In this document: positions 54,486 to 64,000 of the stretch, piece after piece | How positions within the stretch are numbered: the stretch's first letter is position 1 | Layout: each line of letters begins with the position of its first letter | Assembly (NCBI GenBank): GCA_038120095.1 | Contig: JAYOKZ010000012.1 | Span: forward strand, 541-64,540 | Length of the DNA: 64,000 nt | Direction: 5' to 3' | Source of the DNA: Gemmatimonadales bacterium | GTDB lineage: Bacteria > Gemmatimonadota > Gemmatimonadetes > Longimicrobiales > Gaopeijiaceae | Program-made: the position numbers and the translations under genes | Notes under the pieces: model-generated | What the model was told of the DNA's origin: nothing | The model's input: the letters and a program-made list of their open reading frames with translations, nothing else | Databases searched by the model: none

Positions 54486-54710
54486 CTAGGCCCCCGGCGG
54501 TTCTCGCCCGATCGCTCCGCGCAGGAGTGCGTCGCGACTCTCCCGGAACCGCGCCCGGATCCGTGTCGAGAGCACGATCCCGGAGACCACGACGTAGGCG
54601 GAGCCCATCCCCAGCACGAGTGCGACGAGCAATCCACCGAGCCACAGGGTCAGGCCGACGGCGAGGACGAATCGAGGCCTAGGAGCGGCCACGTTTTGAT
54701 GCCATGGCAT
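54486..54710 (-). CDS. Possible small membrane protein
   Basis: About 74 aa (ATG at 54710) or 68 aa (GTG at 54692). Two hydrophobic helices (FVLAVGLTLWLGGLLVALVLGMGSAYVVVSGIVL). It overlaps the 3' end of the response regulator gene. Weak evidence. Confidence 0.3.
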   Translation of the reverse strand: MPWHQNVAAPRPRFVLAVGLTLWLGGLLVALVLGMGSAYVVVSGIVLSTRIRARFRESRDALLRGAIGREPPGA

Positions 54711-55092
54711 TGTTGAGCGTCTCAACCAGCTGGTCACCTGTAAACGGTTTGCGGAGAACCGCATCGCTGCCGGTCAACCCCCCCGACTCGATGGGATCGA
54801 TCTCCACCATCCCCGTCGTGTACACGATGGCAAGATCCGTTCGCATGGCCAGTAGACGCTGAGCGACCCGTCCTCCCCAGCCATCCGGGAGCGCGATATC
54901 CATCAGCACGACGTCGATGTCACCCTCATAGCGGTCGAGTACCTCAGCGGCTTCCTCGGCGGACGATGCGCCGATCATGTCGAAGCCGCGGGCACGAAGC
55001 AGACGGCGTACCACGAGGCGGATGCCGTCTTCGTCATCCACGAAAAAAACGACGGGTTTGTGTTTCAGTTCTTCGGCCTGCTCGTTTGACAC
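54679..55092 (-). CDS. Single-domain response regulator (CheY-like receiver)
   Basis: 137 aa with VVFFVDDEDGIR, phospho-acceptor VVLMDIALPDG, and a conserved Lys region VLRKPF. Confidence 0.88.
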   Translation of the reverse strand: MSNEQAEELKHKPVVFFVDDEDGIRLVVRRLLRARGFDMIGASSAEEAAEVLDRYEGDIDVVLMDIALPDGWGGRVAQRLLAMRTDLAIVYTTGMVEIDPIESGGLTGSDAVLRKPFTGDQLVETLNNAMASKRGRS

Positions 55093-58294: not shown

Positions 58295-61027
58295 ATGAGT
58301 GACATGACCGCATCCACGATCATCCTCGACGGAGAGGAAGTCCCGTTCGCGAAGGGTGAGACGATCTTCGAGGTCGCCGAGCGGAACCGGAAAGAGATCC
58401 CGACCCTTTGCTACGACGACCGACTCGAAGCCTTCGGCGCCTGTCGGCTGTGCGTGGTCGAAGTGGAGGGATCCCGAAATCCCGTTGCATCGTGCACGAC
58501 GAAAGCGGAGCCGGGCATGCGGGTCACGACGAAGAGCGGCTCGCTCGAGATGCATCGCCGTGTCCTGCTCGAGATGGTCGTCTCCGAGAACCGGACGGTG
58601 GACGTCGATGAGCTTTCCGGTTTCGCGTCCCAGGAGATGAAGACCCTGGTCGACCGTTATGAAGCCCGCACCGGTCGATTCGCGGGCCGCACGTCCGGCA
58701 CATCACGCCCGGACGATCCCAACCCGTTCATCCTTCGTGATTACGAGAACTGCATCTCGTGTTACCGCTGTGTCCGGGTCTGCGCCGAACAGGAGGGTGA
58801 TTACGCGATCTCGGTCATGAACCGCGGGTTCGATACCCAGATCACGACGGAGTTCGGCGGATTGCTGAAGGACTCGTCCTGCACATTCTGCGGACAATGC
58901 GTCCAGACGTGCCCGACCGGCGCCCTGGGTGACCTCAAGGCTTTGCGGTTCGCCGAGGTTGACGAGCCGGTGGAGAAGACACGATCCGTATGCCCGTACT
59001 GTGGCGTCGGGTGTGCCGTCGACATCATGACGAAAGGTGATCAGGTGGTTGGCATTCAGCCGGCCATGGATGGGCCGGCGAACGAGGGCGCACTCTGCGT
59101 GAAGGGGCAGTTCGCCTTCGACTTCGTTCACCACCCGGATCGACTGAAGACACCCTTCGTACGTGACGACCATGGGCAACTCGTTCCCGCGACGTGGGAT
59201 GAGGCGCTGGACAGGGCGGCGGCGGGCCTGCTCGAGGCCGTGAACGAACATGGCCGCCACAGCCTGTACGCAGTCGCGTCCGGTCGCGCGCCAAACGAGG
59301 CCGGCTACGTCTTGCAGAAGCTGGTCAGGGCCGGACTGGGAACGAGTTATATCGACAACTGCAGCCGTGCCTGACACGCTCCCACAGTCGCCGGTCTGGC
59401 GGCAACGATCGGGCGGGGCGCGATGTCGAACCCGCTGCGTGACATGGAAAAGCCCGATGTGATCTTCTGCATCGGGACCAACATGACGGAATGCCACCCC
59501 GTCGCAGCCACACGACTGAAGAAGGCCATCGCGAACGGTGCGAAGATGATCGTGGCCGACCCTCGGCACATCGGACTGGTGGACTACGCCGACATGCACC
59601 TGCCCCTGCGTGTCGGCTCCGACGCGGCACTCCTGCTCGGGATGGCGCACGTGATCGCCCGGGAGGGGCTGGTCGACGAGGGCTTCATCGAAGAGCGTAC
59701 GACCGAGGCCGAGGCGTTCCTCGATCACGTGCGCGAGTTCACCCCCGAGTGGGCCTCCACGATCTGCGGGGTCGCGCCGGATTTGATCGAGGAAGCGGCC
59801 CTGCTCTACGCCCGGGCCGAACGGGGTGCGATCTACTACACGCTCGGGATCACGGAGCACATCTGCGGCGTGGACAATGTGCAGAGTCTGTGCAACCTCG
59901 CTCTGATGACCGGAAACCTCGGCCGCGAAGGCACGGGGATTAACCCGATGCGTGGACAGAACAACATTCAGGGCGCGGGAGATGTCGGCGCGATTCCGAA
60001 TAATTACCCCGGTTTCCAGCCGGTCACGGACCCGGCGAACCAGGCCAAGTTCCAGCACGCATGGGGTCGGAAGGTCGATCTGGAGAAGGGAATTACAAAG
60101 GTCCGCGCGCTCGAACTCGCGGGTGATCAGATCAGGGCGATGATCATCGATGGCGAGAACACCGTCGTGACTGATCCAGACCGGGACCACTGTGAGCATG
60201 CCTTGAAGTCGCTGGATTTTCTCGTGGTCTGCGACCTGTTCATGACGGAGACCGCCGAATTCGCCGACGTCGTATTCCCAGCCACGGGTTTCGCAGAAAC
60301 CGATGGGACGCAGACAAACACGGAGCGGCGCGTGCAGCGCCTCCGCCGCGCGGTCCCGGCGCCCGGTGATGCAAAACCCGACTGGTGGATCCTCTCCCAG
60401 CTCGCAAAACGCATGGGCTTCCAGGGCTTCGACTACGGGGAAGCAAAGGACGTCTTCAACGAACTCTGCTCATTGTCCACCACGTATGCGGGGCTCGACT
60501 GGGACCGCATCGAGTACGGCGAGTACCAGTGGCCAGTGCCCGAAGAAGGGCACCCGGGGACGCCACGACTTCACGAAGACGGCTTCGTGAACGGGCGTGG
60601 CATCTTCAAGCTGATCCGTTATCGCGATCCGGCGGAGACGATCGACGAAGATTACCCGGTCTGGCTGACGACGGGGCGTCGGCTCGAGTCGTATCACTCA
60701 CGCACCCAGACCGGACGGTCATCGGGGATCGACTACCTCCTCTCCGAGGAAGTCCTGGAAGCCCACCCGGACGATGTGGCTTCGTGGGGAGTCCATGATG
60801 GCGGTTTCGTCGAAATGGCGAGTCGCCGTGGTTCGGTAAGAATCAAGGTCCGGGCAACGGAACGCTCCCCTCGGGGAACGGTGTTCAGTTCCTTCTCGTT
60901 CAACGATGTCCCGGTCAACGTTCTTACCGGTGCCGGTTACGATCCGGTCACGGACACGGCGGAGTTGAAGGTCTGCCCGGTCCGAATTCGGCCGTCACCA
61001 TCGAGGGGGAGCGAGGCGGCGGACTGA
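58295..61027 (+). CDS. fdhA: Formate dehydrogenase alpha subunit (molybdopterin), selenocysteine-containing (in-frame TGA at 59372-59374)
   Basis: Track ORFs 58295-59374 and 59423-61027 are in the same frame, with 16 sense codons between them. N-terminal 2Fe-2S/4Fe-4S clusters (CRLCVVEV; CISCYRCVRVC; CTFCGQCVQTCP; CPYCGVGC). The context IDNCSRA-[TGA]-HAPTVAGLAATIGRGAMSN aligns with the Sec/Cys active-site motif of FdhF/FdsA-type enzymes. Confidence 0.88.
59384..59406 (+). promoter_or_regulatory. SECIS-like hairpin downstream of the TGA
   Basis: RNA 5'-GUCGCC-GGUCU-GGCGGC-3' (59387-59403): a 6-bp stem with one G-U pair and an apical loop containing GGUC that begins 22 nt from the U of UGA. 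As I recall, this is the same loop sequence and spacing as the E. coli fdhF SECIS. Confidence 0.65.
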
Positions 61028-61107
61028 TCGGGGGATCGTGCCGTTTCCAGCGCGAATGAGCTGCGCCGCGGCTTGAGAGCGGCGGGCCTGAGTGGTATTC
61101 CTTCGCC

Positions 61108-61608
61108 ATGGCAAGATTGGCCGACGACAACGAGGAAGAGATCTCTCTCTTCCCCATGTTCAACATCCTCGCCTGCACCCTCGGTGTCATGGTCTTCATC
61201 CTCGCTACCGTGGCGACGGTGTCGCTTGGCGCGGACAAGGCCGTCGAGATCGTGGCGAACGTCGATCCCGGTGAGGACGACCCCCGAACACCGATCTGGC
61301 TGGAGTGGGACGGGCTGAACCTGACCCTCCTTCCTTCCGGGGAGCAGGCCACGTTCTCCCGGTCCCTCGACGAGATCTCCACGTGGGAGGCAACGTGGGC
61401 GTACATCTCCGGGGCCCTGAGTGGTACTCGCCTGGGAGCTCGGATCGCGGAGGTGGGCCTCGATACCGAGAACCAGTACATCGTTCTCCTGGTCCGTCCC
61501 GCAGGATTCGACGAACTCCCGGAGGTGCGCGGATACTTCGAATTTCTCGGTATCGACGTCGGGTACGAGCCAATCGATCCCACATGGCAGCGGCTGAGCG
61601 TGCAGTAG
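61108..61608 (+). CDS. ExbD/TolR-like bitopic protein, paralog 1 (Asn at the conserved TM Asp position)
   Basis: 166 aa. The acidic N-terminus then EISLFPMFNILACTLGVMVFILA parallels the ExbD segment INVTPFIDVMLVLLIIFMV (Pro conserved, Asp replaced by N19). The periplasmic part has the ExbD-like pattern (IWLEWDGLNLTLLPSG ... QYIVLLVRPAGFDELPEVRGYFEFLGIDVGYEPI). Confidence 0.6.
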   Translation: MARLADDNEEEISLFPMFNILACTLGVMVFILATVATVSLGADKAVEIVANVDPGEDDPRTPIWLEWDGLNLTLLPSGEQATFSRSLDEISTWEATWAYISGALSGTRLGARIAEVGLDTENQYIVLLVRPAGFDELPEVRGYFEFLGIDVGYEPIDPTWQRLSVQ

Positions 61609-61609
61609 G

Positions 61610-62299
61610 ATGTACCGTAAGACTCGTACGTCGGAGGGAGCCTCGATCCTCAACCTCGACTCCCTGATGGACATCCTGTCCTGTCTGGTCGGGGTGATGC
61701 TGTTTCTCGTGATCTATACGGTTCTGGAACTGGGCTCGACGTCCTTCGAGGTCTCCGTCCCGACTCCCCGTGACCGGCCGGTGGACAGTCGACGGGTCTT
61801 GATCGTGGCCAACGGGGGAACGATCCGAGGCCTCGACAGCACCCAGCCAGTGAACGACCTGGTCGCAGGACTGCGGACCGTCGCCATGGACGACATGAGT
61901 CAACTCTTGCGCGAGGCGAACCTCAGCCCACCGACCGATCAGCACTTTCAGTACATCCTCGACTTCGATCGCGAGGTAGCGGCCGTGGACCCGAACTTGC
62001 GCGACTTCGACGTCGAGGTGCGAGAGATCCCCGGGGAGACTGGAGATTCGATCCACCAGTTGGAGACGGGCTCATTCGATGAACTCCTCGGAACCCTGGA
62101 TCCGAACTTCGTCTGGCTCGAATTCGCCGTCGACATAGAAAGTCTGGAAGTCTTTCGGCGCGCACGCGACCTGGCGGAAGAACGCGGCTTCGCGACACGA
62201 TGGGGGCCTCTGGAGATCGAGTTTCCGGTCCGCTTCGATCTCAGGGCGGGCAGCGAGGGTCCTGCACCGCGTGGTATCTTGTCCAAGCCTCAACGATGA
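61610..62299 (+). CDS. ExbD/TolR-like bitopic protein, paralog 2 (TM Asp retained)
   Basis: 229 aa. It starts 1 nt after the paralog 1 stop. SILNLDSLMDILSCLVGVMLFLVI carries D21 at the ExbD Asp25-equivalent position. It shares IL(A/S)C.(L/V)GVM.F with paralog 1. The periplasmic domain is longer (RRVLIVANGGTIRGLD ... NFVWLEFAVDIESLEVFRRARDLAEERGF). Confidence 0.6.
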   Translation: MYRKTRTSEGASILNLDSLMDILSCLVGVMLFLVIYTVLELGSTSFEVSVPTPRDRPVDSRRVLIVANGGTIRGLDSTQPVNDLVAGLRTVAMDDMSQLLREANLSPPTDQHFQYILDFDREVAAVDPNLRDFDVEVREIPGETGDSIHQLETGSFDELLGTLDPNFVWLEFAVDIESLEVFRRARDLAEERGFATRWGPLEIEFPVRFDLRAGSEGPAPRGILSKPQR

Positions 62300-62345
62300 G
62301 CGCGCCGACCTTCGGCCTGCTCGATGACTGCGAGAGGAATACCTG

Positions 62346-63785
62346 ATGGCAACGGTCCAATGTCCGGAATGTGGCGAGTCAACCGAGTTCCCCGCTGAAT
62401 CATGCGGATCCTGCGCCGCATCTCTCGAGGGTGTGCTGTCCGTGCCTGATGATGCCTCCGAGGAGGAGCGTGAGGCAGCGGCCCGGGCATCCGCCGAAGC
62501 TGCTGCAGCCGCCGCCGCGGGAGCCGCGGCTCAGGCGGGAGGACTGAGCGGCAGCGGCGAGCGAGTCAAGCGGGTCAAGGGGTCGAATTCCGCGCTGGAG
62601 GCTCTGATGCCGGTCGCGACCGCGCTGTTGCTATCGCTGGCTCTACAGTTCGCGATCGCCAATGTCGTTGGGGCCGACACCTACATCTACCGTCTGTTCC
62701 GACCACCGGGCGGATGGGTCATGTCCCTCGTGCCAGGCCTGATCGTCTTCGTGCTCGTCTGGACCCTGACGGACCTGGCTCTGAAGTCTCGGCAGGGTGC
62801 AGCCAACGAGGGCGACCTGGACCGCAGGGAAGTTCGGGAGCTGCCTCGGATGGTATCCCAGGAACCCATCGGTGTCCTGCAAAGACGACTGCTGGGGCTG
62901 CCCGGACGTGAGCGTCCGGTCGCCCGCCGACTTCTCTGGCTGCTTCATTATCTGGAGTCCAATGCCGACCCGCAGCGAACTCATGAGCTGCTTCGACATC
63001 AGTCGGACCTCGACGCGGACACGGCAGCGGCAGGGTATCGCACGGTCAAGCTCTTCATCTGGGCAATGCCCATTCTCGGCTTCGTGGGTACGGTGCTGGG
63101 GATCTCACTCGCCGTGGGAGGCTTCTCCGAATTCCTCACGACCAATCTCGACATCGAGGACGTTACGAGGGTCACGGCCGAACTCGGCAACGTGGCCTCG
63201 GGCTTGAGCTTCGCCTTCGACACCACCCTCCTCGGCCTCCTTGCCGGACTCGTAGCGAACGTGACGAGCTCCGCGGTTCAAAAACGCGACGAGCGCTTCT
63301 TCACACGGCTCGACGAGTTGGGGCTGAGTATCGTGGCCAACCGTCAGGATGCCGAACCGGCAGCTCTTCGGGCCGTAGCGCAACCATCAAGTTCCTCGAC
63401 CAGGGAATTCGAAGGGGTCATGCGGGCCCGGCTCGAAGAAATCGACGCCCTCGTCAGCCGCACCCGTCAGGTCATGCAGGGCCTGAGCGAAACATCTGCA
63501 CGTATGAACGCCGGCCTGAGTCAGTCGATGGAGTCGGTACGTCTCACGGTCGACGAGCTCGGTGGAAACGTGTCTTCCGTGTCCACAGCGCTCGAAGCCA
63601 ACGCGGAGAATCAGGTATCGATTCAGGAGGCCATCGAACGGCTTTCGGATTCGCTCGGCTCGTTTGGCGAGGGCCTCGCCGAACTCAGAGCGGAACAGAA
63701 AGCCCTGGGGCCCGTCCTCGAACAACTCGCTGGCCCACTCGAGCTACGGCTCGTGCCGGGACGGTCTGAGAGCCCGGGGGGATAA
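62346..63785 (+). CDS. MotA/TolQ/ExbB-family proton-channel protein with an N-terminal zinc ribbon, an extra TM helix and a long helical C-terminal tail
   Basis: 479 aa with RBS GAGAGGAA. CPECG-x10-CGSC zinc ribbon (aa 6-23), Ala-rich linker, and an extra TM (aa 85-108). ExbB-like TM1 region PPGGWVMSLVPGLIVFVLVW and a cytoplasmic loop. Signature core MPILGFVGTVLGISLAVGGF ... GLSFAFDTTLLGLLAGLVANV (compare ExbB/TolQ LGLLGTV.G and AL..TA.GL). About 165 aa of predicted helical, heptad-like tail follows. Confidence 0.75.
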   Translation: MATVQCPECGESTEFPAESCGSCAASLEGVLSVPDDASEEEREAAARASAEAAAAAAAGAAAQAGGLSGSGERVKRVKGSNSALEALMPVATALLLSLALQFAIANVVGADTYIYRLFRPPGGWVMSLVPGLIVFVLVWTLTDLALKSRQGAANEGDLDRREVRELPRMVSQEPIGVLQRRLLGLPGRERPVARRLLWLLHYLESNADPQRTHELLRHQSDLDADTAAAGYRTVKLFIWAMPILGFVGTVLGISLAVGGFSEFLTTNLDIEDVTRVTAELGNVASGLSFAFDTTLLGLLAGLVANVTSSAVQKRDERFFTRLDELGLSIVANRQDAEPAALRAVAQPSSSSTREFEGVMRARLEEIDALVSRTRQVMQGLSETSARMNAGLSQSMESVRLTVDELGGNVSSVSTALEANAENQVSIQEAIERLSDSLGSFGEGLAELRAEQKALGPVLEQLAGPLELRLVPGRSESPGG

Positions 63786-63817
63786 CCTCCCGGCAGCAGA
63801 TGCCTGCCGACTCCAGA

Positions 63818-64000
63818 ACTAGCCCATGGCCCCCAGATGCGCCCCGATCATCTGGCTGACGCCGATCCATCGATCGATGATCGACCGGACCAGACCACTC
63901 AACTCGTCGAGGTCGTCGGGCTTGCGATGCACCTCACGGGCTCCGAGAGCCTGAGCTCGGTCCGAGTCTGCGGTGGAGGACGATGCCGTCACCACCACCA
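63818..64000 (-). CDS. 3' end of an unidentified gene (runs off the window)
   Basis: Hand translation of the minus strand is open from 64000 to TAG at 63818-63820: ...TADSDRAQALGAREVHRKPDDLDELSGLVRSIIDRWIGVSQMIGAHLGAMG*. The third codon position is GC-rich, like the neighbouring genes. No family recognised. Confidence 0.3.

What the first reader, a model, noticed from the sequence alone, without database searches (positions are those of the whole stretch)
61108..63785. Three-gene ExbD-like / ExbD-like / zinc-ribbon ExbB(MotA)-like module with no TonB, TolA or OmpA-type partner: candidate uncharacterised ion-driven 5:2 motor
Three tightly packed same-strand genes encode the two parts of a proton-driven stator-type machine.
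- The channel subunit has the ExbB/TolQ/MotA signature helices (MPILGFVGTVLG...; AFDTTLLGLLAGLVA).
- Two paralogous bitopic subunits have ExbD/TolR-like TM segments and ExbD-like periplasmic patterns.

The arrangement departs from the known families.
- Gene order is D-D-B rather than B-D(-D)-tonB.
- The ExbD-like proteins are unusually long and divergent (166 and 229 aa).
- The ExbB-like subunit carries three add-ons: a zinc ribbon, an extra TM helix and a helical tail of about 165 aa.
- No TonB, TolA, Pal, peptidoglycan-binding (OmpA/MotB C-terminal) or flagellar/gliding gene is visible nearby.

The one-channel, two-plug composition recalls Myxococcus AglRQS, and the tail recalls ZorA. Neither system matches in domain content. 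This is the locus in the window least explained by known systems.
Basis: partly seen in the sequence, partly recalled or inferred. Interest (0 to 1): 0.75.

Follow-up and report, generated by a model that had tools for sequence, protein, structure and literature searches.

The report
Orphan MotA/ExbB-type three-gene membrane motor
Three adjacent genes encode a very divergent relative of the proton-driven ExbB/TolQ/MotA motor channel plus two unannotated single-helix partner proteins, and this undescribed trio is kept together in hundreds of species from at least seven bacterial phyla with no known output partner.

Summary
Three same-strand ORFs sit at the stated coordinates: A (61108-61608, 166 aa), B (61610-62299, 229 aa) and C (62346-63785, 479 aa).

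- **C** is a real but very divergent MotA/TolQ/ExbB protein. It scores 38.9 bits against Pfam PF01618 (cut-off 22.9) and keeps both pore threonines. It also has an N-terminal zinc ribbon, an extra TM helix and a 165-aa helical tail.
- **A and B** are not ExbD by any sequence test. Both are single-TM proteins with nearly invariant, paralogous TM helices.
- B carries the membrane Asp at the ExbD-D25 position. A carries Asn there (Ser in other phyla).
- A's periplasmic domain has TolR as its top fold match. B's domain matches nothing solved.

All three genes were found in all 71 species-representative loci with enough flank. These span Gemmatimonadota, Planctomycetota, Verrucomicrobiota, Bacteroidota, Calditrichota, Armatimonadota and Myxococcota-like lineages. 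The order is A-B-C or C-A-B, and no other gene is conserved alongside.

Best reading: an undescribed, self-contained 5:2-type ion-driven motor with an asymmetric A/B transpore pair. Stoichiometry, rotation and output are untested. I rate it a new variant of a known kind.

The parts
61108..61608 (+). Gene A: 166-aa bitopic protein (short N-terminus, one TM helix, periplasmic alpha/beta domain). Unannotated family.
   Evidence: ORF. 199 homologues, all 'hypothetical' with no Pfam domain. No Pfam, NCBIfam or PADLOC hit. AF2 model pLDDT 80.9.
61147..61227 (+). A transmembrane helix (residues ~14-40), SLFPMFNILACTLGVMVF, invariant on all faces. Asn19 (61162-61164) occupies the position of ExbD Asp25.
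   Evidence: 17 of the 18 positions S13-F30 are invariant in 26 sequences, and M28 is nearly so. Hydropathy peak 20-38. hhalign register to ExbD. Across 70 loci the position is Ser 44, Asn 22, Asp 2, Gly 1.
61288..61572 (+). A periplasmic domain (residues 61-155), TolR/ExbD-like fold.
   Evidence: pLDDT above 90. Foldseek PDB top hit is TolR 5by4 (prob 0.99, E 4.6e-3, TM-score 0.51 per target). ExbD 8p9r_A ranks 7th.
61610..62299 (+). Gene B: 229-aa bitopic protein. Unannotated family of its own.
   Evidence: ORF. 228 homologues, no Pfam domain. Profile against 1.84 billion representatives gives only 786 hits at E<=1e-3. AF2 pLDDT 80.8.
61655..61738 (+). B transmembrane helix (residues ~16-43), LDSLMDILSCLVGVMLF...VLELG. 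Invariant Asp21 (61670-61672) sits at the ExbD-Asp25 position.
   Evidence: M20-F32 invariant in 28 sequences. Asp is present in every complete B-like N-terminus across phyla. Paralogous to the A helix (hhalign E 8.4e-5).
61790..62239 (+). B periplasmic alpha/beta domain (residues ~61-210). Conserved domain with no known fold match.
   Evidence: pLDDT mostly 80-95. No Foldseek PDB match (best E 0.63). Profile positions 48-215 are recovered in Planctomycetota, Verrucomicrobiota and Myxococcota-like homologues after an inserted coiled coil of ~150 aa.
62346..63785 (+). Gene C: 479-aa MotA/TolQ/ExbB-family channel subunit with add-ons.
   Evidence: Pfam PF01618 at 38.9 bits against cut-off 22.9. 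hhalign to an ExbB/TolQ mini-profile gives prob 87%, E 4.4e-6 over C 104-341 against ExbB 2-238. Homologues are named 'MotA/TolQ/ExbB proton channel family protein'.
62352..62423 (+). C N-terminal four-Cys zinc ribbon (CPEC-x10-CGSC), followed by an Ala/Glu-rich linker up to about residue 84.
   Evidence: Weak Pfam Zn_ribbon_3/DZR hits. PF13240/PF13248 on relatives. CxxC...CxxC is found in C homologues of Calditrichia, Saprospiraceae, Fimbriimonadaceae, Victivallales, Planctomycetota, Verrucomicrobiales and Myxococcota-like loci, and is absent in Opitutia and some Gemmatimonadota.
62607..62669 (+). C extra N-terminal TM helix (residues ~88-108), ahead of the ExbB-equivalent TM1. It gives an N-in, MotA-like four-TM topology.
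   Evidence: Hydropathy segment 90-108. The ExbB alignment starts at residue 104. The helix is retained in homologues that lack the ribbon.
62703..63281 (+). C channel core (residues ~120-312): TM 128-146, cytoplasmic loop, TM 236-264 (WAMPILGFVGTVLGI, with Thr249 = ExbB T148) and TM 286-304 (AFDTTLLGL, with Thr294 = ExbB T181, plus clade-specific Asp292).
   Evidence: hhalign alignment and E. coli numbering. T249, D292, T293 and T294 are invariant. Both motifs are conserved in all phyla sampled, except that one locus has L for D292.
63288..63782 (+). C cytoplasmic helical tail (residues 315-479), Ser/Thr-rich and variable in length by repeat-like modules. It ends in the conserved motif GPVLEQLAGPLELRLVP (63708-63758).
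   Evidence: Only coiled-coil, apolipoprotein and Mce-tail matches in PDB. Weak ZorA tail hit in PADLOC (5.6e-5). Indels and duplicated modules appear in the alignment, and P456, L458, L461, G463, P464, E466 and P471 are invariant. Tail length is 58 to ~725 aa across loci.

Best explanation
The three genes encode a self-contained, previously undescribed subfamily of the MotA/ExbB/TolQ-type ion-driven membrane motors.

Proposed mechanism:
- (inferred by analogy) C forms the outer ring, pentameric by analogy with ExbB, TolQ, MotA and ZorA.
- (shown) C has four TM helices and a pore lined by the conserved threonines T249 and T294.
- (shown) C also has a clade-specific membrane aspartate, D292.
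- (inferred) The two nearly invariant, paralogous TM helices of A and B sit together inside this ring as a heterodimeric 'transpore' pair, as modelled for AglQ/AglS in AglR5.
- (shown for position, inferred for role) B contributes the single protonatable Asp21, at the ExbD-D25 position. A contributes a permanently neutral polar residue there (Asn19, or Ser in other phyla).
- (inferred) Proton flow through the C/B interface drives relative movement of the C ring against A/B.
- (inferred) The periplasmic domains of A (TolR-like fold) and B (novel alpha/beta domain) act as plug and anchor, or as periplasmic output.
- (inferred) C's cytoplasmic zinc ribbon and its variable helical tail with a conserved C-terminal motif couple the motor to a cytoplasmic partner or regulator that is still unknown.

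The cellular function is unknown. It is neither a canonical Ton nor Tol energiser, nor a flagellar stator, nor a Zorya system.
For: - C passes the Pfam MotA_ExbB threshold.
- C aligns along the whole length of ExbB/TolQ (prob 87%, E 4.4e-6).
- The two pore Thr residues are conserved in all 78 sampled C homologues where the TM3 motif was located; two ORFs (L069, L075) were not scored.
- A and B are bitopic.
- Their TM helices are invariant on every face. That fits a helix buried in a pore, not a peripheral TonB-like helix.
- The two helices are paralogous to each other.
- B Asp21 and A Asn19 fall on ExbD Asp25 in the alignment register.
- Asp is universal in B-like proteins. In A-like proteins the position is Ser 44, Asn 22, Gly 1, Asp 2.
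- A's confident periplasmic model has TolR as its best PDB fold match, with ExbD at rank 7.
- The trio is complete in 71 of 71 loci with enough flank, in at least seven phyla. Gene order is A-B-C or C-A-B, and no other gene is conserved.
- A heteromeric plug has a precedent in the AglR5QS model (PMC11761067).
- Heterologous pairs of Asp-bearing transpore helices next to tolQ-like genes without tolR have been reported (PMC12204202).
Against: - There is no significant sequence relationship of A or B to ExbD, TolR or MotB. Pfam gives 0 of 26 A members and 1 of 28 B members at E 0.086. The PDB profile searches are empty. hhalign gives E 0.007 to 0.6.
- The TolR fold match for A is weak in absolute terms (E 4.6e-3, TM-score 0.35 per query and 0.51 per target).
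- B's domain matches nothing.
- No multimer model could be run, so the ring, the 5:1:1 stoichiometry and the position of A are all inferred.
- A transpore pair with only one carboxylate does not fit the accepted alternating two-site rotary cycle (PMC9389320). Continuous rotation is therefore uncertain.
- No conserved partner gene and no experimental data point to a function.
Confidence: 0.6

Rival explanations
1. The motor core is C5B2, a homodimer of the Asp-bearing B. A is not in the pore. It binds the outside of the C ring through its TM helix and acts as the force-transducing or regulatory third protein, as TonB, TolA or GltG do.
For: - A lacks the carboxylate expected of a pore helix.
- Ton, Tol and Agl motors all have such a third bitopic partner (PMC12204202; PMC11761067).
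- In PVC lineages A-like proteins carry long coiled coils after the TM helix, as TolA does.
Against: - A's helix is paralogous to B's.
- A's helix is invariant on all faces rather than along one SHLS-like stripe.
- A has no His.
- A, not B, has the TolR-like periplasmic fold.
- Two loci have Asp in both proteins (L038, L043). That fits two equivalent pore positions.
Confidence: 0.15
2. It is simply a divergent ExbB-ExbD1-ExbD2 (or TolQ-TolR) energiser that serves TonB or TolA proteins and TonB-dependent receptors encoded elsewhere in the genome.
For: - C is closer to ExbB/TolQ than to MotA (hhalign E 2e-5 and 6e-4 against 0.013).
- exbB-exbD-exbD operons are common, and tonB is often unlinked (PMC12204202).
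- TonB-dependent receptor genes lie 8-9 kb away in L004 and L005.
Against: - A and B fail the ExbD Pfam model.
- The B profile reaches only 786 of 1.84 billion representatives, so it does not merge with the very large ExbD/TolR family.
- C has a zinc ribbon, an extra TM helix, a tail and the AFDTT motif, none of which ExbB has.
- No tonB, tolA, tolB or pal sits adjacent in any of 71 loci.
- Loci L041, L060 and L081 carry a separate canonical exbB-exbB-exbD set nearby, so the trio is an additional system.
- The receptor genes are at non-conserved positions.
Confidence: 0.1
3. It is a Zorya-like anti-phage sensor. A ZorA-like channel with a cytoplasmic tail signals envelope perturbation to effectors.
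For: - Weak PADLOC hits of C to ZorA2 (2.9e-6) and to the ZorA1 tail (5.6e-5).
- A variable-length helical tail is a ZorA hallmark (PMC11946911).
Against: - There is no ZorB-type OmpA/peptidoglycan-binding partner and no ZorC, D or E.
- Neighbours are housekeeping genes (pgi, ilvD, H+-PPase, formate dehydrogenase) with lineage-stable synteny, not defence islands.
- The phyletic pattern looks vertical and phylum-wide.
Confidence: 0.03
4. The complex is not a rotary motor. It is a PMF- or ion-gated two-state switch or sensor. With one titratable Asp in B and one fixed neutral residue in A, it toggles rather than turns, and it reports to the cytoplasm through the zinc ribbon and tail.
For: - The accepted cycle needs two alternating sites (PMC9389320). 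Here one site is Asn or Ser in 66 of 70 lineages.
- The Gemmatimonadota form invests in cytoplasmic appendages.
- In one subclade an FHA-nucleotide cyclase, PP2C, globin-like protein and Ser/Thr kinase cluster follows directly (L005, L090, L092).
Against: - Purely inferential.
- The five D292 residues of the ring could supply the missing carboxylates and keep rotation possible.
- The signalling neighbours are confined to one subclade.
- PVC homologues have short tails and long periplasmic coiled coils, which look like mechanical output.
Confidence: 0.12

Closest known systems
ExbB-ExbD / TolQ-TolR (Ton and Tol-Pal energisers, 5:2 motors)
   Same: - C is a PF01618 member and aligns over the whole ExbB length.
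- Both pore Thr residues (ExbB T148 and T181) are conserved.
- The partners are bitopic with a membrane Asp at the D25 position in B.
- A has a TolR-like periplasmic fold.
   Different: - A and B are not PF02472 members.
- A has Asn or Ser instead of Asp.
- C has a zinc ribbon, an extra TM helix (N-in topology), a long tail and an extra membrane Asp (AFDTT).
- No TonB, TolA, TolB or Pal is linked in any locus.
Myxococcus AglR-AglQ-AglS gliding motor
   Same: One TolQ-like channel gene plus two different bitopic plug genes, modelled as AglR5:Q1:S1 with a heterodimeric plug (PMC11761067).
   Different: - That paper describes AglQ and AglS as TolR orthologues that superimpose on the TolR structure. 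A and B fail the ExbD Pfam model and profile tests.
- No glt genes lie nearby.
- The trio occurs in many phyla.
- The paper does not describe a zinc ribbon or a long tail on AglR. I did not examine the AglR sequence myself.
ZorA-ZorB of Zorya defence systems
   Same: A MotA/ExbB-type channel with a C-terminal cytoplasmic helical tail of variable length (PMC11946911). C gives weak PADLOC ZorA hits.
   Different: - No ZorB peptidoglycan-binding partner.
- No ZorC, D or E.
- The tail is 165 aa here, whereas the ZorA tail projects about 70 nm.
- The genomic context is housekeeping, not a defence island.
TolQ-like motors paired with heterologous 'transpore-helix' vWA proteins (Williams-Jones et al. 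2025)
   Same: A tolQ-like gene with no recognisable tolR or exbD, accompanied by a heterologous pair of bitopic proteins. Their N-terminal helix carries the Asp and is predicted to insert in the pentamer. These occur in Verrucomicrobia and other phyla (PMC12204202).
   Different: - A and B and their PVC homologues have no vWA domain.
- Only one of the pair has the Asp.
- No TPR or vWA gene is conserved beside the trio.
- Whether the channel subunits belong to the same clade could not be tested.
GldL-GldM (type IX secretion / gliding motor)
   Same: A 5:2 motor whose inner bitopic subunit carries long periplasmic domains that deliver the output. GldM dimerises into an ~18 nm periplasmic shaft (PMC9389320). 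This resembles the long coiled-coil A-like and B-like proteins of PVC lineages.
   Different: - There is no sequence relationship. [quoted passage not shown]
- Only a noise-level GldM_1st hit appeared on one A-like protein (E 0.022).

Membership tests
MotA/TolQ/ExbB proton channel family (Pfam PF01618) | Score above the curated Pfam gathering threshold | tested here: met
   38.9 bits against 22.9, E 8.3e-10, C residues 203-323. An Opitutia homologue scores 38.2 bits.
MotA/TolQ/ExbB proton channel family (Pfam PF01618) | Conserved pore-lining threonines on the last two TM helices (ExbB T148/T181, TolQ T145/T178) | tested here: met
   C T249 and T294 align to ExbB T148 and T181. They are invariant in 32 family members and present in all 78 sampled loci where the motif was located.
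MotA/TolQ/ExbB proton channel family (Pfam PF01618) | Pentameric ring enclosing two partner helices | not testable with these tools
ExbD/TolR (Pfam PF02472) | Detectable sequence membership (Pfam, profile or PDB homologue) | tested here: not met
   - No Pfam or NCBIfam hit.
- 0 of 26 A members; 1 of 28 B members at E 0.086.
- No ExbD, TolR or MotB chain in the PDB profile searches.
- hhalign E 0.007 to 0.6.
- The B profile hits only 786 of 1.84 billion representatives.
ExbD/TolR (Pfam PF02472) | Single N-terminal TM helix with the essential Asp (ExbD D25, TolR D23) | tested here: inconclusive
   B meets it: D21 is invariant and universal across phyla. A does not: N19 is invariant, and across phyla the position is Ser, Asn or Gly in 67 of 70.
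ExbD/TolR (Pfam PF02472) | Periplasmic ExbD/TolR alpha/beta fold | tested here: inconclusive
   A: the top Foldseek PDB hit is TolR 5by4 (prob 0.99, E 4.6e-3, TM-score 0.51 per target), and ExbD 8p9r ranks 7th. B: no match, best E 0.63.
Ton system / Tol-Pal system | Linked or co-conserved tonB or tolA-tolB-pal genes (and TonB-dependent receptors) | tested here: not met
   - No gene other than A, B and C is conserved across 80 loci.
- Neighbours sampled by Pfam are unrelated.
- The window has no ExbB, ExbD, TolQ, TolR or TolA homologue by phmmer.
- Unlinked tonB elsewhere in the genome cannot be excluded.
MotAB / PomAB flagellar stator | B subunit with a C-terminal OmpA-like peptidoglycan-binding domain, and flagellar gene context | tested here: not met
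   - No OmpA or MotB hit for A, B or their distant homologues.
- C against MotA gives hhalign E 0.013.
- No flagellar genes appear in any sampled context.
Zorya (ZorAB + ZorC/D/E) | ZorB with a PG-binding domain plus soluble effectors ZorC/ZorD or ZorE | tested here: not met
   PADLOC gives no hit for A or B and only weak ZorA hits for C. No effector genes are in the neighbourhoods.
Zorya (ZorAB + ZorC/D/E) | Long pentameric coiled-coil tail on the A subunit | tested here: inconclusive
   A helical tail is present, 165 aa here and 58 to ~725 aa in relatives. Its oligomeric state and shape were not modelled.
AglRQS gliding motor | TolQ-like channel plus two different TolR-family plugs, functionally tied to Glt proteins | tested here: not met
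   The one-channel, two-partner layout is shared. However, A and B are not TolR-family by sequence, and no conserved partner genes exist.

The most novel reading that the evidence does not exclude
This is a widespread class of MotA/ExbB-type machines, present in at least seven phyla and not previously described. Its inner pair is an obligate heterodimer with only one protonatable Asp. The other helix carries a fixed Asn or Ser that mimics a permanently protonated site. The outer ring contributes its own ring of five membrane Asp residues (D292, motif AFDTT).

Such a machine could not run the accepted alternating two-site 5:2 cycle. It would use a different proton-coupling scheme: either carboxylates carried on the ring, or a half-stroke or oscillating switch. 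It would link a novel periplasmic domain (B) to cytoplasmic zinc-ribbon and tail signalling.
Probability: 0.25. Interest if true: 0.8.

Novelty: new variant of a known kind. Interest (0 to 1): 0.62.

Why it matters
5:2 ion-driven motors power flagella, nutrient import, envelope maintenance, gliding, type IX secretion and phage defence. Each new family found so far has revealed a new way for cells to deliver inner-membrane energy.

- This trio defines another family. It has clear sequence signatures (WAxPILGFxGTVLGI, AFDTTL, SLFP(M/F)(F/L)[N/S]ILAC, LDSL(M/L)D) and two partner protein families that no database names.
- It is present in hundreds of species of environmentally dominant but little-studied phyla: Gemmatimonadota, Planctomycetota, Verrucomicrobiota and others.
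- Its built-in asymmetry, one Asp and one Asn or Ser in the inner pair, is a natural experiment on a central open question: how many protonation sites a 5:2 motor needs.
- It would give a handle on unknown envelope biology in these phyla, and the signatures allow immediate annotation of the three families.

Tried and rejected
- **Sequence homology of A and B to ExbD, TolR or MotB.** Tried with Pfam, NCBIfam and PADLOC on the window proteins. Also tried Pfam on 10 distant homologues and on every alignment member, PDB profile searches, and hhalign to verified E. coli ExbD, TolR and MotB and to a five-sequence ExbD/TolR profile. All were negative or noise-level.
- **C against solved structures.** Single-sequence and whole-profile searches returned only coiled-coil matches through the tail.
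- **Fold search of B against the PDB.** Nothing significant.
- **Conserved partner genes.** All-against-all clustering of ORFs within +/-8 kb in 80 loci found only A, B and C, plus Opitutia-internal synteny. Pfam on those neighbours and on large flanking ORFs gave unrelated functions: GFO/IDH oxidoreductase, PGI, IlvD, glycosyltransferase, UvrD-like helicase, fucosidase, H+-PPase, multihaem cytochrome, TPR and PQQ proteins.
- **Canonical Ton or Tol paralogues in the window.** None found.
- **Promoter and terminator scan of 60800-64000.** Uninformative; counts were at shuffle level.
- **Literature searches.** No description of this trio was found.
- **Rejected: 'gene order D-D-B is diagnostic'.** Relatives have C-A-B.
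- **Rejected: 'Zorya-like defence'.** No ZorB, C or D, and housekeeping synteny.
- **Not done.** No structural test of B's C-terminal sub-domain alone. No genome-wide co-occurrence with TonB or TolA.

Full report
**1. The observation**

The ORF list shows three + strand ORFs at the stated coordinates.
- A: 61108-61608, 166 aa.
- B: 61610-62299, 229 aa.
- C: 62346-63785, 479 aa.
- The gaps are 1 nt and 46 nt, and composition is uniform across the region.

The quoted motifs are in C. Homologue searches give about 200 relatives for each protein, at first sight all from Gemmatimonadota/Longimicrobiales metagenome genomes. C relatives are named 'MotA/TolQ/ExbB proton channel family protein'. A and B relatives are only 'hypothetical protein' and carry no Pfam domain.

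**2. The channel subunit C**

C passes Pfam MotA_ExbB: 38.9 bits against a cut-off of 22.9, residues 203-323. It is nonetheless remote from characterised members.
- phmmer and a family profile find no ExbB, TolQ or MotA chain in the PDB.
- NCBIfam TolQ scores E 0.41.

Using E. coli sequences taken from the annotated MG1655 record, hhalign gives the following.

| Comparison | Result |
|---|---|
| C family vs ExbB/TolQ mini-profile | prob 87%, E 4.4e-6; C 104-341 against ExbB 2-238 |
| C family vs ExbB alone | E 2e-5 |
| C family vs TolQ alone | E 6e-4 |
| C family vs MotA alone | E 0.013 |

In that alignment C T249 corresponds to ExbB T148 and C T294 to ExbB T181. Both are invariant in the family.

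Hydropathy gives four TM segments. The first, 90-108, precedes the ExbB-equivalent TM1. The N-terminus with its four-Cys ribbon should therefore be cytoplasmic, a MotA-like N-in topology.

After the last TM helix comes a 165-aa helical, Ser/Thr-rich tail. It matches only coiled-coil, apolipoprotein and Mce-tail chains and, weakly, ZorA tails. In the family alignment the tail changes length by repeat-like modules. It ends in the nearly invariant motif GPxLxQLxGPLELRLxP.

An invariant membrane Asp (D292, motif AFDTT) lies two residues before the second pore Thr. ExbB has Leu at that position.

**3. The two small proteins**

Both have one TM helix. In alignments of 26 and 28 diverse homologues the TM helices are the most conserved parts.
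- A: 17 of the 18 positions S13-F30 are invariant (SLFPMFNILACTLGV.VF).
- B: M20-F32 is invariant (MDILSCLVGVMLF).

Profile-profile comparison of A and B aligns only these helices (E 8.4e-5).

In the alignment register to ExbD/TolR, B D21 and A N19 fall on ExbD D25. However, no sequence test links either protein to ExbD, TolR or MotB.
- Pfam, NCBIfam and PADLOC give nothing.
- Member-by-member Pfam gives 0 of 26 for A and 1 of 28 for B at E 0.086.
- PDB profile searches are empty.
- hhalign E values are 0.007 to 0.6.

An exhaustive search of 1.84 billion representatives with the B profile finds 786 proteins at E<=1e-3. That marks a modest family of its own, not the very large ExbD/TolR superfamily.

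AlphaFold2 models are confident in the periplasmic domains.
- For A, the best of 350,542 PDB chains is TolR (5by4: prob 0.99, E 4.6e-3, TM-score 0.51 per target). The ExbD periplasmic domain ranks 7th. This is weak in absolute terms, but it is the specific family expected.
- For B, nothing matches (best E 0.63).

**4. Conservation as a unit and taxonomic spread**

Gemmatimonadota contigs keep A-B-C together while the flanks differ. A scan of one genome per GTDB species found at least 472 loci encoding a C relative.

I ran HMMs of A, B and C on six-frame ORFs of the 80 best loci, and inspected L079 by hand. All three genes are present in every one of the 71 loci not cut by a contig end.

| Gene order | Lineages |
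|---|---|
| A-B-C | Gemmatimonadota, Calditrichia, a Planctomycetaceae MAG, Saprospiraceae, Fimbriimonadaceae (Paludibacter locus cut before A) |
| C-A-B | Verrucomicrobiota (Opitutia, Verrucomicrobiales), other Planctomycetota (including cultured Bremerella sp. JC770), Victivallales, Myxococcota-like and one Spirochaetaceae-labelled MAG |

Other features also hold across phyla.
- The pore motifs WAxPILGFxGTVLGI and AFDTTL are conserved in all of them. One locus has L for D292.
- The zinc ribbon is found in most lineages and is lost in Opitutia and some Gemmatimonadota.
- The residue at the Asp position is always Asp in B-like proteins. In A-like proteins it is Ser 44, Asn 22, Gly 1 and Asp 2.
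- In PVC and Myxococcota-like lineages, A-like and B-like proteins are longer (about 270-330 and about 370 aa as stop-to-stop ORFs). They have a coiled coil after the TM helix, and B's periplasmic domain is recognisably conserved behind it.

**5. Partners**

Clustering of all ORFs within +/-8 kb across the 80 loci finds no family shared beyond A, B and C. Pfam on flanking genes gives unrelated housekeeping functions.

There are subclade-specific contexts.
- In the window's lineage, formate-dehydrogenase-like genes sit directly upstream.
- In another Gemmatimonadota subclade, an FHA-nucleotide cyclase, PP2C, globin-like protein and Ser/Thr kinase cluster sits directly downstream.

The window holds no canonical ExbB, ExbD, TolQ, TolR or TolA homologue. 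Three Myxococcota-like loci carry a separate canonical exbB-exbB-exbD set 6-8 kb away, so the trio is an additional system there.

**6. How it most likely works**

*Shown:*
- C is a MotA/ExbB-family channel subunit with the conserved pore threonines.
- Its two obligate neighbours have TM helices that are paralogous and conserved on all faces.
- One of those helices carries the Asp at the ExbD-D25 position.
- One of the two proteins has a TolR-like periplasmic fold.

*Inferred:*
- C forms a pentamer around an A/B heterodimer, as in the predicted AglR5QS complex (PMC11761067).
- Protonation of B D21 from the periplasm drives movement of the ring relative to A/B.
- The periplasmic domains act as plug, anchor or transmitter.
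- The zinc ribbon and tail face a cytoplasmic partner.

The single-carboxylate inner pair is at odds with the alternating two-site cycle described for 5:2 motors (PMC9389320). Three readings are possible:
- the ring's D292 residues take part in proton transfer;
- the device makes a limited stroke rather than a continuous rotation;
- A sits outside the ring, like TonB or TolA.

None of these could be tested, because no multimer prediction was available.

**7. Comparison with what is known**

- **Family placement.** C is a member of PF01618. A and B are not members of PF02472.
- **Ton, Tol, flagellar and Zorya systems.** The module fails the defining features of all four: no TonB, TolA or Pal; no OmpA-type domain; no ZorB, C or D.
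- **AglRQS.** It shares only the one-channel, two-partner layout.
- **Closest published concept.** Williams-Jones et al. 2025 report that tolQ-like genes in PVC and other phyla occur with heterologous pairs of Asp-bearing transpore-helix proteins and no tolR. They conclude that more 5:2 systems 'remain to be discovered' (PMC12204202). Those proteins carry vWA domains, which A, B and their homologues lack.
- **Other literature.** Puente-Lelievre et al. 2025 note the structural heterogeneity of non-flagellar 'generic ion transporters' (PMC12505986). I found no paper describing this trio.

**8. Verdict**

The trio is a conserved, widespread and unnamed MotA/ExbB-type module with an asymmetric pair of novel partner proteins and no known output.

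It is a new variant of a known kind of machine, not a new kind. Function, stoichiometry and mechanism remain inference, which limits the score.

Noticed in passing
window 58295-61027 (+), stop at 59372-59374: The two formate-dehydrogenase-like ORFs (58295-59374 and 59423-61027) are in the same frame. They are separated by a TGA in the context YIDNCSRA-TGA-HAPTVAGL, the classic selenocysteine site of FdhA. This is probably one Sec-containing alpha subunit of about 910 aa rather than two genes. The same split is called in relatives L001, L004 and L091.
   Followed up: partly
L005 11642-16410; L090 10329-15009; L092 8624-13318: In one Gemmatimonadota subclade the trio is followed on the same strand by an FHA-adenylate/guanylate cyclase, a PP2C phosphatase, a small globin-like protein and a Ser/Thr kinase with Big_2 domains. 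The gaps are 0-13 nt in L005 and L092. This could be a phospho-signalling link to C's Ser/Thr-rich tail. For comparison, the FHA domain of GltG is predicted to contact AglR.
   Followed up: partly
L044 8504-8851 and 8855-9466 (and 25-27 other Opitutia loci): Two small ORFs with lipoprotein-type signal peptides (LFLGC, FIAC) and no Pfam hit sit directly upstream of the C-A-B trio, on the same strand, throughout Opitutia. They could be lineage-specific accessory components.
   Followed up: partly
L038 10480-11621; L043 4102-5477: In a small subgroup (an unclassified MAG and a Pirellulales MAG) both A-like and B-like proteins carry Asp at the key TM position. These may represent the ancestral symmetric state. 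L043 also has a giant C of about 1091 aa, with a tail of about 725 aa.
   Followed up: no
L041 3611-6145, L060 2170-4654, L081 1095-3507 (- strand): A canonical exbB-exbB-exbD cluster, detectable with E. coli ExbB, ExbD, TolQ and TolR, lies 6-8 kb upstream of the trio on the opposite strand in three Myxococcota-like loci. Canonical and novel systems therefore coexist.
   Followed up: partly
window 54679-55092 (-) and L001 11475-11936 (-): Stand-alone response-regulator receiver genes flank the region on both sides in the window's lineage. One is upstream near the Lnb_N gene. By synteny with L001, another lies just beyond the window end, after C.
   Followed up: no
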